49,415 nt of DNA from an uncultured Lachnospiraceae bacterium (GCA_949447165.1 CASTAV010000003.1:1-49415), one strand, 5' to 3'. Positions 37,402 through 48,009 are shown, numbered from the stretch's first letter. Numbers and translations are program-made. The notes: generated by a model from the sequence alone, not told the origin.

Positions 37402-38733
37402 CTATATAACTGCGTCGGTTGTATTCGCCGGCGTAATGGCATAAGTCAGCAGCCGCGTATCATCTACATTCATATAAATCGTTCCCGCAGAAAATTTAAT
37501 GCTGGAACTTGGAACTGCTTTTAATAAAACAATGGGATTCCCTTTCGCTGACGCATATTTTTCGGCTTCTGATCCGGCATAACATTTTATCGTCACTTCA
37601 TTACTGCATATTTGATAATAATGATCCTGCATATTTATTACGCTGTTCGGAATCAAAATGCTGCTTAGGGCATTGCAACTATTGAACGCCGCATATTCAA
37701 TTTGTGTAACCGTATTTGGAACTGCAACGCTTATAAGAGAACTGCATCCAGAAAAAGCGGTTCTTCCAATCTTTAACAAACGATTTGATAAACCTATCTG
37801 CTTTAAAGACGTACATCCTGCAAATGAAGACTCTTCCAAATACCTTACGCTTGATGGAAGTGTAACTTTTACCAAACTAGAACAGCCGCTAAATGCTTCC
37901 GTGCCAATTGAAATTCCGGTATTGCCATTTGCAATCGAAACATTTTTTAATGAAGAACACTGCTCAAATGCGTTATAACCAATATTGGCATTTGCCCCAA
38001 TGGAAACCGTCGTTAGATTCTTATTACCTGCAAAAGCATATCCGGATATAGACGTATGAACAGATGCACTTACTAAATTTTGACAATTATTAAAAGCACT
38101 TCTGTCCATTTCAACAGATGCCGCAACATTGACGCTTGTTAATCCTGTATTTTCAAAGCTACCTATGCCTAAATATGTAAGCGTTGACGGAAAAACACAG
38201 CCGTTTAACTTTACACAATTTTGAAAAGCATAATATCCTATTGACGTAAGCGCAGTTCCAAGAGAAACGCTTCGCAAATTTCCACAATTAGAAAAAGCGT
38301 ACCTACTTATAGACACTACATTTTTCATTCCATAAATAGCTGTCAGATTTCCGCAGCTCTGAAAACTACCGTAACCGATACTTGTAACCGTATCCGGTAT
38401 ATTAACAGATATCACCCAATCATTATATTCAAAAGCCCAATTACCAATCGCCGTTACTTTTTTTCCGGCTATCATGCTTGGAATCACTACATTTTCTTCT
38501 ACTCCTGTATATTTTGTTATAACAATATTGGAATAATCTCCTTCTTTATATTGCCAAAAACCAAATACGCCGTTTCCTTTCGCCATTTCCACAGTTTCTT
38601 CCCTGACAGTCTCCTCTGCATTCACCATCTCTGTCCCAGAAAAAAACATAAGAACCGCAAGCAACGCAACAAATAATATCCTTTTTTTCATAATCACTTT
38701 CCCCTTTCTACCGATAACCCATTTCTTCCTCAT
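37402..38733 (-). CDS. BspA-type leucine-rich-repeat (LRR_5) cell-surface protein, N-terminal part (ends at an in-frame TAG)
   Basis: The signal peptide KKRILFVALLAVLMFFSGTEMVNA is followed by many ~22-aa repeats of the type I(P/G)..VTSIG..AF..C..L. The ORF stops with TAG at 37402-37404 in the middle of a Big_2 domain. Confidence 0.7.
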   Translation of the reverse strand: MRKKWVIGRKGKVIMKKRILFVALLAVLMFFSGTEMVNAEETVREETVEMAKGNGVFGFWQYKEGDYSNIVITKYTGVEENVVIPSMIAGKKVTAIGNWAFEYNDWVISVNIPDTVTSIGYGSFQSCGNLTAIYGMKNVVSISRYAFSNCGNLRSVSLGTALTSIGYYAFQNCVKLNGCVFPSTLTYLGIGSFENTGLTSVNVAASVEMDRSAFNNCQNLVSASVHTSISGYAFAGNKNLTTVSIGANANIGYNAFEQCSSLKNVSIANGNTGISIGTEAFSGCSSLVKVTLPSSVRYLEESSFAGCTSLKQIGLSNRLLKIGRTAFSGCSSLISVAVPNTVTQIEYAAFNSCNALSSILIPNSVINMQDHYYQICSNEVTIKCYAGSEAEKYASAKGNPIVLLKAVPSSSIKFSAGTIYMNVDDTRLLTYAITPANTTDAVI

Positions 38734-39754
38734 AATCGAGAATCAGATACAAATTCTGCTTCTCATATTCATTTAACAAGCTGTCTTTAAAATCTTCCGG
38801 CTTAATAGAACCATGATACCAATCTTTTTCATCAAAATAATTTTGCAGCGCTTCATCATCAAACAACCGCCCATACCTCGCATAGACTTCATTCCTAGCC
38901 AAACGAAGCTCCTCTTTTCCTAACCCCTCTATATCCGATCTGTCCAGATACCGTGCGCCACTGTCCGGAATTATATAATCTTTCTCTTTTTCCTGCCGTT
39001 TTGTTTCTTTCGTCACTTTCACAGGCTGGCTTCCTTCCACTGTCGTATCCCATTCACAGATATATCCGCCCCTGCTTACTGTTTCATCATCATTCCCAAG
39101 GTCGTCCCACTGCCCTTCATCAATCCGATAACCATACCCGCTCCTTTCTCCATTACAGATTGCCCCGTAGCACTGTCCATAACTTCCATCAGGCTCCCCT
39201 TCTCCCCAATTCGTATAAGAAACAGGCTCTCCCGTCACCCATGTTTCCCATGGCTCCCGAATGCCTATCCAAAGATCACAGTCAAATCCCACATATTGAT
39301 TGATATATCCATAGACTGCTTTCTGTTCTTTTTTGGAGGCAATGGTAAGCAAATGCCCTCCTCTTTCTTCACATTTTTCTTTCGCCTCCTCCCATGTAAT
39401 GCCGCCAGCCTGTTCAAAATAATAATAGCTGTGCCCCTTATATTCGAAACAATCCGTAGGTATATGGAGGCTTTCCGTTTCATTCTGTTTGTTTTCCTGT
39501 TTAGTTTCCCACTCATCTTCCTTTTGGCTCTGCTGTTCTGCCTCCGATTGCTGTTTTGCTTCTTCCATGCGCTTCTGCTCTGCTTTTTGCTCTTTTGATT
39601 CCGCTAATGCAGTTTCCACTTTCGGTTTCAATTTTTTTATCCCATAGCGGACCCCCGCCGCAATCACTGCCGCCGCCACTGCGGCAAATACCGCCATCGC
39701 AAGCAGCATTTTTTTCATATCCTGTTTTCTGTAATTTGATAACTTCAACCTCAT
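38708..39754 (-). CDS. type-II membrane protein with C-type lectin-like domain and C-terminal YARHG domain
   Basis: N-terminus MRLKLSNYRKQDMKKMLL followed by a TM helix and a Q/E-rich coiled-coil. The CTLD is C..KGHSYYYF......W..A...C...GGHL..I.S..E...V.......WIGI......W.W..GEP..YTNW..GEP....C.......W.D..C....YICEW. A YARHG-like segment is present (NEVYARYGRLFDDEALQNYFDEKDWY). Confidence 0.7.
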   Translation of the reverse strand: MRLKLSNYRKQDMKKMLLAMAVFAAVAAAVIAAGVRYGIKKLKPKVETALAESKEQKAEQKRMEEAKQQSEAEQQSQKEDEWETKQENKQNETESLHIPTDCFEYKGHSYYYFEQAGGITWEEAKEKCEERGGHLLTIASKKEQKAVYGYINQYVGFDCDLWIGIREPWETWVTGEPVSYTNWGEGEPDGSYGQCYGAICNGERSGYGYRIDEGQWDDLGNDDETVSRGGYICEWDTTVEGSQPVKVTKETKRQEKEKDYIIPDSGARYLDRSDIEGLGKEELRLARNEVYARYGRLFDDEALQNYFDEKDWYHGSIKPEDFKDSLLNEYEKQNLYLILDYEEEMGYR

Positions 39755-39784
39755 TCTCCTTACTTTATTCCAAGCGCCAGCCGC

Positions 39785-47202: not shown

Positions 47203-47232
47203 ACCTTATCTTCTCCCGATAAATTTCCCTGC

Positions 47233-48009
47233 CTACTCACTGTATTCACAGATATAGCCTATTTTTCCACTGAGATATGAAAAATTTCCCACAATATCCC
47301 CCGGCACATCATTGAATACCCATCTCGCTTCTTTTTCAAAAAACTGCATAGCCAGTACATTTTCTTCTATTTCTCCGTCATAATAACTGGGTTCTCCCTG
47401 CATCCAATATCTGCTGTGCCAAGAATGTCCCACTCCATTTAGGATACCCCCGCTAAACGCGCCTTCTGCCGACCGCCAACGGTAATTTTGTTCCGAATCC
47501 TGTGATGCTCCCAAATAAAACAAGATCTCTTTCATACCGTTTTTTTCAATTTCCGCTGTAATATAGGCAAACTCCGCTTCGTCGTCGATATTGACAAGAC
47601 AGCCCCCTTTTGACTTGCATGTTTCAAACGCTTCCTGCCATGTACAATCTTCCACTACATACTCATACCGATGAATAGACGATTCTTCCGTTTCCGGTTC
47701 TTCCGTTTCTGATTCTTCCTCATATTCAGAATCTTTCTGTTCCTGCCCGTCGCTTATCCGATCCGATTCTTCCGCAAGTTCCTGCATTCTTTGTTCTTCG
47801 GATTCCCTTTCCGCTTTTTCTTCCGCTTCCTTTTTTTCTTCCGCTTCTCTTTTTTCTTTAGCCTCTTTCCTCTCTAAAAGCCACATATCCACTTTTGGCT
47901 TTGCAATCCTGTAAACTGTAAACAAAGCCACAATCAGAATCACGAATGCCACTGCCGCCTTTAACAGCATCTTATATACATCTTGTTTTCTATAATTTGA
48001 AAATTTCAT
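47233..48009 (-). CDS. type-II membrane protein with C-type lectin-like domain (paralog of 38708-39754 and 44554-45606)
   Basis: MKFSNYRKQDVYKMLL + TM + E/K-rich coiled-coil + acidic linker + CTLD (CTWQEAFETCKSKGGCLVNI ... WMQGEPS ... IGYICEYSE). Confidence 0.65.
   Translation of the reverse strand: MKFSNYRKQDVYKMLLKAAVAFVILIVALFTVYRIAKPKVDMWLLERKEAKEKREAEEKKEAEEKAERESEEQRMQELAEESDRISDGQEQKDSEYEEESETEEPETEESSIHRYEYVVEDCTWQEAFETCKSKGGCLVNIDDEAEFAYITAEIEKNGMKEILFYLGASQDSEQNYRWRSAEGAFSGGILNGVGHSWHSRYWMQGEPSYYDGEIEENVLAMQFFEKEARWVFNDVPGDIVGNFSYLSGKIGYICEYSE

What the first reader, a model, noticed from the sequence alone, without database searches (positions are those of the whole stretch)
38708..48009. 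Paralogous family of type-II membrane C-type-lectin proteins with a conserved cytoplasmic N-terminal motif
Four genes (38708-39754, 44554-45606, 45656-45925, 47233-48009) start with near-identical tails, then a single TM helix. The tails are MRLKLSNYRKQDMKKMLL, MKFSNFRGKDAKKIFL, MTISNFRGKDKKRMLL and MKFSNYRKQDVYKMLL. Three continue into E/K-rich coiled-coils and C-type lectin-like domains (one doubled, one fused to a YARHG domain). The fourth is a lectin-less two-TM remnant. CTLD arrays are uncommon in Firmicutes. The shared N-terminal tail suggests a common sorting, secretion or interaction signal.
Basis: partly seen in the sequence, partly recalled or inferred. Interest (0 to 1): 0.6.

Follow-up and report, generated by a model that had tools for sequence, protein, structure and literature searches.

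The report
Lectin membrane proteins sharing an N-terminal tail
A small clade of mouse-gut Lachnospiraceae encodes one to five membrane-anchored lectin or cell-wall-binding proteins per locus, all starting with the same 16-residue cytoplasmic tail and always sitting directly downstream of a predicted GTPase-based "conflict" system, which makes them the likely outward-facing arm of that uncharacterised system.

Summary
Four minus-strand genes begin with a motif fixed to Met1: M-[KR]-[LF]-S-x-[YF]-R-x-x-D-x-x-[KR]-[MI]-x-L, followed by one TM helix. Three carry bona fide C-type lectin domains (Pfam and AlphaFold/Foldseek); one also carries YARHG.

The paralogues are old (28-37% identity). The tail is kept in 28 distinct proteins from about nine loci, with synonymous and AGR/CGN codon turnover, so selection acts on the protein.

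The family is very narrow. It gave 12 hits among 1.84 billion representative proteins, and six GTDB species carry it, all mouse-gut Lachnospiraceae.

Every testable locus places these genes immediately after a cytoplasmic transglutaminase-like gene, at the end of an HSP70 / FNIII-Zn-ribbon / GTPase-like / GAP1-N2 operon (the system described by Kaur et al. 2020). No core protein of that operon has a TM segment.

The same CTLD-GH3-YARHG ectodomain set occurs elsewhere in gut Clostridia. There it sits behind cytoplasmic zinc ribbons and next to peptidoglycan hydrolases.

Best reading: these are cell-wall or glycan-binding type II membrane proteins, and the tail is a lineage-specific cytoplasmic coupling peptide to the GAP1 system. 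The partner is unknown and the function is inferred. I class it as a new variant of a known kind, of moderate interest.

The parts
47233..48009 (-). D: N-terminal tail + TM + E/K-rich helical linker + disordered acidic spacer + D-type C-type lectin domain (EPS...E-E-N...ND). This is the universal family member and always lies directly downstream of the transglutaminase-like gene.
   Evidence: ORF. Lectin_C 25.5 bits against cutoff 22.6. Orthologue alignment. AF2 pLDDT 81.9 and Foldseek matches to Mincle, Dectin-2 and langerin. Present in every locus that has the module.
47962..48009 (-). Tail of D, residues 1-16: MKFSNYRKQDVYKMLL
45656..45925 (-). C: 89-aa member with tail + TM1 + short outside loop + TM2 + strongly basic C-terminal tail and no ectodomain
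   Evidence: Intact on 534 contigs. An 88-aa analogue lies at L002 19745-20011.
45878..45925 (-). Tail of C: MTISNFRGKDKKRMLL
44554..45606 (-). B: tail + TM + helical E/K linker + two C-type lectin domains. Domain 2 carries the complete QPD...E...WND set.
   Evidence: Lectin_C 3.1e-24 in two stretches. PDB sequence hits to DEC-205, PLA2R, mannose receptor and Mincle. AF2 model and Foldseek. NCBI names it 'C-type lectin domain-containing protein' (MCI9427733.1).
45559..45606 (-). Tail of B: MKFSNFRGKDAKKIFL
38708..39748 (-). A: tail + TM + E/K/Q linker + one C-type lectin domain + C-terminal YARHG domain. The start is revised to TTG 39748.
   Evidence: Pfam Lectin_C 1.5e-10 and YARHG 2.1e-25. 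Start from RBS spacing and an independent 346-aa gene call.
39701..39748 (-). Tail of A: (M)KLSNYRKQDMKKMLL
48034..49077 (-). Cytoplasmic transglutaminase-like protein with an intact Cys-His-Asp triad (C169, H203, D218) and no TM. It is the invariant upstream neighbour of the family.
   Evidence: Transglut_core. 49-68% identity across loci with the triad invariant. No TM. Synteny.
49093..49415 (-). 3' end of the GAP1-N2 gene (759 aa in full), cut by the window end
   Evidence: phmmer 1e-63 to the L010 GAP1. Full gene with GAP1-N2 at 40.2 bits and GAP1-M at 27.3 bits in L010.
45940..47202 (-). GH3 (NagZ-like beta-N-acetylhexosaminidase) with an N-terminal hydrophobic anchor or signal. It partners the D-type CTLD gene inside and outside GAP1 loci.
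   Evidence: NCBIfam 5.2e-50. TM at residues 6-24. CTLD-GH3 adjacency or proximity in L092, L111, L113, L116, L119, L127, L130 and L131.
43455..43865 (-). 136-aa multi-TM protein. An orthologue follows the B-like gene in another species (L002 11103-11504).
33901..35881 (-). ClpP plus a TM-less VirD4-like ATPase, with overlapping ORFs. The pair recurs at the downstream end of the locus in other species.
   Evidence: (L007/L008)
29654..32326 (-). CHAT-domain protease. In the L004, L013, L014 and L015 lineages it directly follows the tail-bearing genes.

Best explanation
The four genes belong to a small family of N-in/C-out (type II) membrane proteins. They share a 48-residue module fixed to the N-terminus and carry exchangeable extracellular heads.

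- The module is a 16-residue cytoplasmic tail with invariant Met1, Ser4, Tyr/Phe6, Arg7 and Asp10, then one TM helix, then a basic K-P-K-V juxtamembrane stretch.
- The heads are CTLD, 2xCTLD, YARHG, CTLD+YARHG, a sub-threshold CTLD-like region + NPCBM, two unknown domains, or none.
- The heads face the cell wall and bind glycan or peptidoglycan. B domain 2 has a complete Ca2+/Gal-type QPD-E-WND site.
- The genes form the distal part of one operon-like cluster: HSP70, HSP70-vWA, FNIII/Zn-ribbon protein, a divergent DO-GTPase-like protein, GAP1-N2, a cytoplasmic transglutaminase-like thiol enzyme, then the tail-bearing genes with a GH3 hexosaminidase.
- None of the core proteins has a TM segment. 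I therefore infer that the tail-bearing proteins are the membrane and extracellular arm of this GAP1-N2 system. I also infer that the conserved tail is a short linear motif docking them to a cytoplasmic component (GAP1, the vWA/HSP70 pair or the transglutaminase-like enzyme).
- In related Clostridia the same CTLD/YARHG heads sit behind a cytoplasmic zinc ribbon instead of this tail.

Shown: the family, its motif, the domains, the narrow distribution and the strict synteny. Inferred: the topology, glycan or cell-wall binding, coupling to the GAP1 system, and the docking role of the tail.
For: Motif and selection:
- 28 distinct members align without gaps from Met1. S4, R7 and D10 are invariant and position 6 is always Y or F.
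- The tail is 55-57% identical between members, against 23-25% for the TM and 28-35% for the rest.
- Nine of 28 members use GTG or TTG at the same position. Arg7 is encoded by AGA, AGG, CGG, CGT and CGC, and Ser4 by TCA, TCG and TCT, so conservation is at the protein level.

Exclusivity:
- 12 hits among 1.84e9 representative proteins.
- Within 132 fetched loci the module HMM and the full motif occur only at the N-termini of genes in GAP1-TGase loci, apart from one weak HMM hit (E 2e-4) on an amidase TM region in L131/L132 that lacks the tail motif.

Synteny:
- TGase followed by a D-like gene in every locus (window and L001-L016, L091).
- GAP1, the 412-aa GTPase-like protein and the FNIII protein lie upstream wherever the contig reaches.
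- Gene spacings are 14-49 nt.

System identity:
- GAP1-N2 40.2 bits and GAP1-M 27.3 bits. HSP70 and HSP70-vWA present.
- This matches the 'HSP70 theme' of GAP1-N2 systems, for which membrane-proximal action and cell-wall-binding ectodomains were predicted (PMC7159879 sections 27 and 29).
- No TM in any core protein.

A second, independent link:
- L111 encodes DO-GTPase2, GAP1-N2, vWA and then a Zn-ribbon-TM-D-type-CTLD protein.

Heads and topology:
- CTLD confirmed by Pfam, PDB sequence search and fold search.
- YARHG is described as extracellular with a peptidoglycan-binding hypothesis (PMC3355149).
- Homologues have the architecture Zn-ribbon-TM-linker-CTLD or Zn-ribbon-YARHG and sit next to GH3, GH25, Amidase_3 and S13/beta-lactamase-like genes.
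Against: - No interaction, expression or topology data exist. Everything functional is inference from context.
- The GAP1-N2 systems themselves are uncharacterised experimentally. I found no follow-up papers, and PADLOC has no models matching the core proteins.
- The CTLD-GH3-YARHG set also occurs without any GAP1 gene within +/-8 kb (L094, L098, L104, L119, L130, L131). The heads can therefore work independently of GAP1.
- Distant GAP1-HerA-TGase loci (L017, L024, L028) lack the family, so it is not required by that system.
- The tail is absent from all core proteins, so there is no EAD-like homotypic logic to point at a partner.
- Conservation in the tail has a period of about 3 (S4, R7, D10, K13). 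The test for an alpha-helical conserved face was not significant (p=0.17).
- Charge bias across the TM is modest in A: +4 on the tail side against +3 after the TM.
Confidence: 0.5

Rival explanations
1. A self-contained cell-wall remodelling or glycan-binding module. The tail-bearing lectin and YARHG proteins position or regulate the co-encoded GH3 (and in some species GH25) hydrolases on peptidoglycan or secondary wall polymers, or bind host mucin glycans. The conserved tail, TM and K-P-K-V segment serve co-assembly of the paralogues, or correct membrane insertion. Linkage to GAP1 is a lineage-specific genomic association without direct coupling.
For: D-type CTLD genes sit beside or near GH3 in many loci without GAP1. 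They also occur with GH25, Amidase_3 and S13/beta-lactamase-like genes and with Zn-ribbon-YARHG. L006/L016 has GH25 among the tail-bearing genes. D-like, B-like and YARHG-type members recur as a set in the window, L002, L006/L016, L007, L009 and L012. NPCBM and CTLD are carbohydrate-binding domains.
Against: The tail has never been seen outside GAP1-TGase loci, although the heads are widespread with a different N-terminus. Spacing to the TGase and GAP1 genes is tight in all lineages. L111 shows a second, independent GAP1-CTLD juxtaposition. A pure insertion or assembly role does not explain invariant S4, R7 and D10 in the cytoplasmic part while the TM itself is only 23% conserved.
Confidence: 0.3
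2. The N-terminal motif is a specialised secretion or sorting signal, analogous to the YSIRK/GS motif in Gram-positive signal peptides. It would direct the site or route of export, possibly with cleavage after the hydrophobic segment.
For: The position in the N-region before a hydrophobic core, and a loose resemblance of [FL]-S-N-[YF]-R-K to Y-S-I-R-K (read directly from the sequence). Some members have small residues near the end of the hydrophobic stretch, for example IAAG|VR and SQA|VR.
Against: No Pfam YSIRK_signal or other signal-motif hit at E<=0.01. The motif is restricted to one locus type in about nine lineages, whereas a sorting signal should mark many exported proteins. Other exported proteins in the same locus (GH3, BspA-LRR, the 1390-aa surface protein) have ordinary hydrophobic N-termini without the motif. 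AF2 models tail, TM and linker as one continuous helix. Member C has a second TM and a basic cytoplasmic C-tail, which fits a retained anchor. Homologues carry a folded zinc ribbon in the same place, which is incompatible with a cleaved signal.
Confidence: 0.08
3. The similarity is only a by-product of recent tandem duplication or gene conversion within one strain and has no functional meaning.
For: The genes are clustered on one strand within 9.3 kb.
Against: The paralogues are 28-37% identical. Orthologous D-like, B-like and YARHG-like groups exist in about nine lineages at 36-56% identity. Synonymous sites and even Arg codon families differ. The upstream DNA is not conserved.
Confidence: 0.02

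Closest known systems
GAP1-N2-type GTPase-centric 'conflict' systems, HSP70 theme (Kaur, Burroughs, Iyer and Aravind, eLife 2020; PMC7159879)
   Same: The locus has a GAP1 protein with N2 and M domains. It also has a P-loop protein with weak DO-GTPase similarity upstream, a large FNIII/Zn-ribbon protein, and HSP70 plus HSP70-vWA genes. It occurs in Firmicutes. The paper predicted variable TM components with cell-wall-binding ectodomains and action near the membrane.
   Different: The main text of the paper does not mention canonical C-type lectin domains, YARHG, the transglutaminase-like neighbour, ClpP, VirD4-like ATPases or any shared N-terminal tail. The one supplementary file held as text has no occurrence of Lectin_C, CLECT, YARHG, Transglut or Lachnospiraceae. 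The GTPase here is 412 aa and below the Pfam thresholds. I did not see GrpE.
Zn-ribbon-TM-linker-CTLD and Zn-ribbon-YARHG proteins of gut Clostridia (for example 'zinc-ribbon domain-containing protein' of Faecalicatena acetigenes, P0191)
   Same: A homologous D-type CTLD (IHRYE..DCTW...GEPS..DG...ND.P...YICEY), the same TM-plus-acidic-linker layout, the same GH3 neighbour, and YARHG paralogues in the same clusters.
   Different: The cytoplasmic N-terminus is a zinc ribbon rather than the 16-residue tail. Most are not next to GAP1 or the TGase; L111 is the exception.
Animal group II type II C-type lectin receptors (DC-SIGN, CD23, langerin, Mincle, Dectin-2, ASGPR)
   Same: The architecture: short N-terminal cytoplasmic tail with a signalling motif, single TM, helical neck, C-terminal CTLD. 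The best fold matches of D and B are these receptors. B domain 2 has the QPD...E...WND Ca2+/sugar ligands (sequence; motif meaning from general CTLD literature, my own knowledge).
   Different: These are bacterial proteins. Sequence identity is only about 16-24% in the single-CRD fold alignments. The tail motif is unrelated to ITAM, hemITAM or internalisation motifs. Only one of the four CTLDs in the window has the full Ca2+ site. No evidence of oligomerisation.
YSIRK/GS-type signal-peptide motifs of Gram-positive surface proteins
   Same: A conserved polar or basic motif placed before a hydrophobic segment at the extreme N-terminus of surface-exposed proteins.
   Different: No profile match. 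The tail is restricted to one locus type and the anchor appears to be retained rather than cleaved.
EAD / GAAD adaptor domains of the Kaur et al. systems
   Same: The concept: a small module shared by several variable proteins of one system that couples them to the core.
   Different: EADs are defined by a copy on a core component as well. The tail motif is on no core protein. It is a 16-residue linear motif, not a globular domain.

Membership tests
C-type lectin-like domain (Pfam PF00059) | Profile match above the curated gathering score | tested here: met
   A 42.2 bits, B 86.2 bits (two domains) and D 25.5 bits, against a cutoff of 22.6. C has none.
C-type lectin-like domain (Pfam PF00059) | CTLD fold (two helices, two antiparallel sheets, long loop region) matching solved CRDs | tested here: met
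   D model pLDDT 84-98 over residues 111-258. Foldseek E 4e-8 to 1e-6, with TM-score 0.61-0.77 normalised to target, against Mincle, Dectin-2, langerin, CD23 and DC-SIGN. The B model has lower confidence (64.6) but matches mannose receptor and Endo180 tandem CTLDs and single CRDs. A was not modelled.
C-type lectin-like domain (Pfam PF00059) | Conserved alpha1-beta5 cysteine pair (W..A...C ... C-E-[WY]) | tested here: met
   Present in all four CTLDs of the window and invariant in the orthologue alignments.
Ca2+-dependent carbohydrate-binding C-type lectins (true CRDs) | EPN or QPD tripeptide plus a downstream Glu plus WND (Ca2+ site 2 ligands) | tested here: inconclusive
   Complete in B domain 2 (QPDNFQGDEDY...KWND). 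It is kept in orthologues P0002 and P0003, and changed to EPN...WND in P0005. Incomplete in B domain 1 (EPD...WRA), A (EPD...WDD) and D (EPS...E-E-N...[FWL]ND). No binding data.
YARHG domain (PF13308) | Profile match above the gathering score, C-terminal to a TM segment | tested here: met
   A: 88.9 bits against cutoff 27, residues 258-342. Orthologous YARHG-only members in L002, L006, L007 and L009.
GAP1-N2-type GTPase-centric system (Kaur et al. 2020) | GAP1 protein with GAP1-N2 and GAP1-M domains | tested here: met
   L010 7706-9985: GAP1-N2 40.2 bits and GAP1-M 27.3 bits, both above the cutoff of 24. Its 3' end lies in the window at 49093-49415.
GAP1-N2-type GTPase-centric system (Kaur et al. 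2020) | DO-GTPase gene immediately upstream of GAP1 | tested here: inconclusive
   The 412-aa upstream protein hits DO-GTPase2 at 21.8 bits and DO-GTPase1 at 17.5 bits, both below the cutoff of 27. It also gives a small_GTP hit at 20.3 bits. A local HMM links it to the Zn-ribbon GTPases of L017 and to the DO-GTPase2-positive protein of L111.
GAP1-N2-type GTPase-centric system (Kaur et al. 2020) | FNIII-repeat protein in the operon | tested here: inconclusive
   The 1005-aa protein has only a 'faint' Fn3_SaeA_3rd hit and a weak double zinc ribbon.
GAP1-N2-type GTPase-centric system (Kaur et al. 2020) | HSP70 theme: HSP70 genes in the neighbourhood (plus GrpE) | tested here: met
   HSP70, an HSP70 fragment and HSP70-vWA lie upstream. 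GrpE was not seen within the fetched flanks.
YSIRK/GS signal peptide | YSIRK-G/S motif profile in a cleavable signal peptide | tested here: not met
   No YSIRK_signal hit at E<=0.01 for any of the four proteins. Cleavage was not tested.
Type IV pilin-like N-terminus | Short basic leader ending in Gly, then F/M-T-L-x-E and a hydrophobic helix | tested here: not met
   No Gly/Phe cleavage motif and no Glu at +5 in any of the 28 members. The weak NCBIfam GspI and pilin-like hits (E about 0.002-0.007) fall far below their cutoffs.
EAD/GAAD adaptor modules (Kaur et al. 2020) | One copy fused to a core component, further copies on effectors | tested here: not met
   The full motif is found only at the N-termini of the family and never inside GAP1, the GTPase-like protein, FNIII, HSP70, TGase, HerA, VirD4-like or CHAT proteins.
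Known anti-phage defence systems (PADLOC-DB v2) | Profile match of the core proteins | tested here: not met
   No hits for the TGase, B, GAP1, the GTPase-like protein or FNIII. A gave only two very weak hits (E 0.002-0.009), and the kinase, CHAT and VirD4-like proteins gave only generic hits.

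The most novel reading that the evidence does not exclude
The tail is the cytoplasmic docking peptide through which outward-facing C-type lectin and YARHG sensors report cell-wall damage or foreign glycans (for example phage or competitor attack) to a GAP1 / DO-GTPase / HSP70-vWA machine. That machine then releases proteolytic effectors (transglutaminase-like thiol enzyme, CHAT, ClpP with a VirD4-like ATPase). This would be a bacterial counterpart of C-type-lectin-receptor innate immune signalling. 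It would also provide the first sensor and input defined for the experimentally untouched GAP1-N2 systems.
Probability: 0.2. Interest if true: 0.8.

Novelty: new variant of a known kind. Interest (0 to 1): 0.5.

Why it matters
GAP1-N2/DO-GTPase systems were predicted in 2020 from comparative genomics. In the searchable literature nobody has followed them up experimentally, and how they sense anything is unknown.

This locus type supplies a concrete, testable candidate. It is the only set of membrane proteins in the conserved block. The heads are recognisable ligand-binding domains, one with a canonical Ca2+/galactose-type site. All members share a 16-residue cytoplasmic handle with three invariant polar residues that can be mutated or used as bait.

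One of the six species is a cultured mouse-gut isolate (B94_19_ER_BP, locus L013), so genetics and biochemistry are feasible.

It is also a clean natural example of N-terminal module swapping: zinc ribbon against short linear motif, on an otherwise conserved lectin scaffold.

If the GAP1 link turns out to be incidental, the family is still a new cell-wall-associated lectin set of an abundant mouse commensal. That would be of narrower interest.

Tried and rejected
- Profile search of the word-indexed 5.8-billion-protein set with the 14-sequence tail alignment returned only four short fragments. It added nothing beyond the exhaustive representative search.
- I tested whether the tail has an alpha-helical conserved face. 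The conservation moment peaks at 110-120 degrees (period about 3), and the permutation test at 100 degrees gave p=0.17. I make no claim from this.
- I looked for nucleotide-level conservation around the starts, such as an RNA element or gene conversion. Upstream DNA is not conserved and codons vary. Rejected.
- I considered the window to be a conjugative element because of the VirD4-like gene. Rejected: the window holds housekeeping genes (TilS, SpoIIE, ProRS, CCA-adding enzyme). The VirD4-like protein lacks TM segments and is paired with ClpP.
- I considered the Ser/Thr kinase at 42499-43392 as a writer of Ser4. Rejected as a general explanation: the kinase, rSAM and peptide genes are called only in loci of the window's own species (L001, L010) and not in the gene-called loci of other lineages (L002-L009).
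- I considered the transglutaminase-like enzyme as a dedicated tail-processing enzyme. Not supported as an obligate pairing: related GAP1-HerA-TGase loci lack the family. It remains a candidate partner.
- PADLOC gave no matches to the core proteins. The Kaur et al. supplement held as text has no mention of lectin, YARHG or transglutaminase.
- Promoter and terminator scans were at shuffle-expected levels and uninformative.

Full report
**Observation**

The four ORFs are present on the minus strand as described. A six-frame scan for [FIL]SN[FY]R finds them, plus one hit in a stop-interrupted frame.

Pfam confirms the domains:
- A: Lectin_C (1.5e-10) and YARHG (2.1e-25).
- B: two Lectin_C stretches (3.1e-24).
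- D: Lectin_C just above the gathering score (25.5 against 22.6 bits).
- C: no domain.

D's lectin domain was then confirmed by structure. An AlphaFold2 model built on 15 homologues has pLDDT 84-98 over residues 111-258. Its best PDB matches are Mincle, Dectin-2, mannose-receptor CRD4, DCIR, langerin, CD23 and DC-SIGN.

B matches animal tandem-CTLD receptors by sequence. Its lower-confidence model (pLDDT 64.6) matches them by fold.

A simple hydropathy scan gives one TM in A, B and D and two in C.

A's start is better placed at TTG 39748:
- The AAGGAG site lies 8 nt upstream of the TTG but only 2 nt from the ATG at 39754.
- An independent gene call gives 346 aa.
- The TTG start puts the motif in exactly the register of all other members.

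**The N-terminal module**

From the window and related loci I collected 28 distinct members. They align without a single gap from Met1.

| Position | Residues |
|---|---|
| 2 | K, R (T once) |
| 3 | L, F mostly |
| 4 | S, invariant |
| 6 | Y or F |
| 7 | R, invariant |
| 10 | D, invariant |
| 13 | K, R (N twice) |
| 14 | M or I |

The hydrophobic helix follows, and then a basic [KR]-P-[KR]-[VI]-like stretch in most members.

- Between members the tail (residues 2-16) is 55-57% identical. The TM is 23-25% and the remainder 28-35%.
- Nine of 28 genes start with GTG or TTG at the same codon.
- Arg7 uses both AGR and CGN codons, and Ser4 uses TCA, TCG and TCT.
- Upstream DNA is not conserved.

The constraint is therefore on the peptide, not on RNA, and not a result of gene conversion. 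Paralogues in the window are only 28-37% identical overall.

**How widespread is it**

An HMM of the 48-residue module was run against 1.84 billion representative proteins. It found 12 sequences at E<=1e-3, all of them these proteins, their orthologues or fragments.

The window matches a mouse-gut metagenome contig and an uncultured Lachnospiraceae MAG. NCBI calls it 'Eubacterium sp.' and already names B a 'C-type lectin domain-containing protein'.

I scanned one genome per GTDB species using the neighbouring transglutaminase-like protein as anchor.
- Six species have a close relative of it (56-100% identity). All are mouse-gut Lachnospiraceae or 'Eubacterium' MAGs, and one is an isolate.
- The module occurs in those six and in none of 74 loci with more distant transglutaminase homologues.
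- Further lineages come from metagenome assemblies (L002, L007, L009, L091).

**Context**

All genes of the region are on one strand with 14-49 nt spacings. In every lineage the order is as follows:

1. HSP70 genes and HSP70-vWA.
2. A 1005-aa protein with faint FNIII and zinc-ribbon signals.
3. A 412-aa P-loop protein with sub-threshold DO-GTPase similarity.
4. GAP1 (GAP1-N2 40.2 bits, GAP1-M 27.3 bits).
5. In some lineages, a 1053-aa HerA/FtsK-like ATPase.
6. A 347-aa transglutaminase-like protein.
7. The D-like gene.
8. Optionally GH3, then a B-like gene, then a YARHG gene.
9. ClpP plus a VirD4-like ATPase, or a CHAT protease.

The window is cut inside the 3' end of GAP1 (49093-49415).

[quoted passage not shown] (PMC7159879). 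Those authors inferred action near the membrane and ectodomains that contact the cell wall. Their main text mentions neither canonical CTLDs, YARHG, this transglutaminase-like neighbour, ClpP, VirD4-like ATPases nor any shared tail, and the one supplementary file held as text has no occurrence of the lectin, YARHG or transglutaminase terms.

- The transglutaminase-like protein is 49-68% identical across lineages. Its Cys-His-Asp triad is invariant and it has no TM.
- None of the core proteins has a TM segment.
- The tail motif never occurs inside them.
- The number of tail-bearing genes per locus is one to five. D-like is always present and always first after the transglutaminase-like gene.

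The heads are CTLD, 2xCTLD, YARHG, CTLD+YARHG, a sub-threshold CTLD-like region+NPCBM, two unassigned domains (L006) and none (C, and an 88-aa analogue in L002). P0004 fuses 2xCTLD with YARHG. The module is constant while the heads are shuffled.

**The heads occur elsewhere with a different N-terminus**

I scanned metagenome contigs and the protein collection with the D-type CTLD. The same domain is found in human-gut and other Clostridia, with the hallmark IHRYE..DCTW ... GEPS..DG ... ND.P ... YICEY.
- Most are proteins with a cytoplasmic zinc ribbon, a TM and an acidic linker, for example a Faecalicatena acetigenes 'zinc-ribbon domain-containing protein'. A few instead have ordinary signal peptides or long N-terminal regions.
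- Several lie beside or near a GH3 gene. In F. acetigenes the two ORFs overlap.
- In L131 the cluster reads Zn-ribbon-YARHG, Amidase_3, S13/beta-lactamase-like, Zn-ribbon-CTLD, GH3.
- In L098 a GH25 muramidase precedes the lectin gene.

This supports three points.
- The region N-terminal to the TM is cytoplasmic, so the CTLD and YARHG heads are outside. This agrees with the published view of YARHG as an extracellular domain hypothesised to bind peptidoglycan (PMC3355149).
- The heads belong functionally with peptidoglycan or wall-glycan enzymes.
- The tail replaces a zinc ribbon specifically in the lineage where the set is joined to the GAP1-transglutaminase operon.

One zinc-ribbon version (L111) lies directly after DO-GTPase2 (27.4 bits), GAP1-N2 and a vWA protein. 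This is a second, independent juxtaposition of a D-type lectin membrane protein with a GAP1-N2 system.

**Ligand site**

This part reads the sequences against the general CTLD literature, which is my own knowledge.
- B domain 2 has all five Ca2+-site-2 ligands in canonical spacing (QPDNFQGDEDY...KWND). This form is associated with galactose-type specificity.
- Orthologues P0002 and P0003 keep it. P0005 has EPN...WND (mannose type), and P0004 has lost it.
- B domain 1, A and D have incomplete sets (EPD/WRA, EPD/WDD, EPS/ND).

Sugar binding is therefore plausible for one domain and open for the others.

**Mechanism**

Shown:
- A narrow, old, protein-level-constrained family with an N-terminus-locked tail.
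- The lectin and YARHG identity of the heads.
- Strict synteny with the GAP1-N2 operon.
- These are the only TM proteins in the conserved block, apart from GH3 and a small multi-TM protein.

Inferred:
- N-in/C-out topology.
- Binding to wall or glycan.
- The tail as the cytoplasmic contact to a system component. The candidates are GAP1, whose C-terminal part was proposed to recruit variable components, the peptide-binding vWA/HSP70 pair, and the transglutaminase-like enzyme.

I put this at about 0.5.

The main rival (about 0.3) is that the lectin/GH3/YARHG set works on the wall independently of GAP1, and that the module serves insertion or paralogue co-assembly. In its favour, the heads occur widely without GAP1. 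Against it, the tail never occurs outside GAP1 loci.

A YSIRK-like sorting or cleaved signal is unlikely (no profile hit, single-locus restriction, zinc-ribbon homologues, member C's topology). Recent duplication is refuted.

The supposed defence role of GAP1-N2 systems is itself only a prediction. PADLOC has no models for them and I found no experimental follow-up.

**Verdict**

It missed the decisive context, and three details need correction (the coiled-coil, the 'remnant' and the rarity of CTLDs in Firmicutes).

The feature is a new, lineage-restricted variant component of a known but uncharacterised system class. Interest is moderate. The distribution is narrow and there are no functional data. 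It does offer a tractable entry point into GAP1-N2 systems, and the architecture is strikingly like that of animal type II C-type lectin receptors.

Noticed in passing
window 41202-43392 (minus strand): A RiPP-like cassette lies between B and A. It consists of a PapB-like radical SAM/SPASM maturase (NCBIfam rSAM_PapB 8.8e-44, below cutoff), a 57-60-aa peptide with a Cys-rich C-terminus (...SSACDSCSGSCKGHGISVWTACDVR, 42372-42554), and a TM-less Ser/Thr kinase whose ORF overlaps the peptide ORF. Among the gene-called loci it appears only in those of this species (L001, L010).
   Followed up: partly
window 33901-36297 (minus strand); L007 11756-13632: ClpP and a TM-less VirD4-like ATPase (CD1115-family-like, 234 bits against a cutoff of 250) have overlapping ORFs. 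They recur as an adjacent pair in another species in the opposite gene order. A TY-Chap1/YbjN-like chaperone gene lies next to them in the window. This could be an ATPase-protease pair rather than a conjugation part.
   Followed up: partly
window 27249-32326 (minus strand): A 797-aa protein with a major-vault-protein shoulder domain (4.9e-21) and a vault repeat lies directly downstream of an 890-aa CHAT-domain protease.
   Followed up: no
window 36381-36509: A tandem repeat of a 22-23-nt unit (about 5 copies, 86% matches; also readable as 68 nt x 1.9) lies in the AT-skewed intergenic region between the Big_2 protein gene and the TY-Chap1 gene.
   Followed up: no
window 39785-41184; L010 17891-19291: The 257-aa ORF and the Sel1/DUF4190 ORF overlap by 19 nt in the window but form one 466-aa ORF in another assembly of the same species. 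That assembly also has shorter kinase and rSAM calls. This suggests a frameshift polymorphism or assembly differences.
   Followed up: no
L111 1907-8468: In an unrelated metagenome lineage the operon reads DO-GTPase2, GAP1-N2, vWA and then a Zn-ribbon-TM-D-type-CTLD protein. This is a second, independent association of this lectin type with a GAP1-N2 system, without the tail and without the transglutaminase-like gene.
   Followed up: partly
L130 4486-10107 (Faecalicatena acetigenes); L131 4868-10578; L098 6565-11911: Arrays of Zn-ribbon-anchored membrane proteins (Zn-ribbon-CTLD, Zn-ribbon-YARHG, Zn-ribbon-WG repeats, Zn-ribbon-TPR) are clustered with peptidoglycan enzymes (GH3, GH25, Amidase_3, S13/beta-lactamase-like). 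In F. acetigenes a Peptidase_S8-vWA protein is also present.
   Followed up: partly
L017 (Ruminococcus flavefaciens Y1) 1339-11053; L024; L028: A distant version of the core: two Zn-ribbon GTPases, an 877-879-aa GAP1-like protein, a 1045-aa HerA/FtsK-like ATPase, in L024 and L028 a small acidic protein, and a transglutaminase-like protein, without any tail-bearing lectin genes. The transglutaminase-like gene therefore belongs to this GAP1 subtype more widely than the lectin family does.
   Followed up: partly
window 44554-44700 (B domain 2) and orthologues P0002-P0005: The sugar-specificity tripeptide of the membrane-distal CTLD differs between species. It is QPD in the window, P0002 and P0003, and EPN in P0005. 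In P0004 QPD is kept but the downstream Glu and the WND motif are lost. The tail stays constant throughout.
   Followed up: partly
window 43455-43865; L002 11103-11504: A 133-136-aa multi-TM protein of unknown family sits downstream of the B-like gene in L002 and, with an NMNAT-like gene between, downstream of B in the window. The two species' copies are closely similar by eye, so it is possibly another membrane component of the locus.
   Followed up: no
window 43934-44524: An NMNAT-like or cytidylyltransferase-like gene (weak nicotinamide-nucleotide adenylyltransferase hits) is inserted directly after B. Among the gene-called loci it is seen only in those of this species (L001, L010).
   Followed up: no
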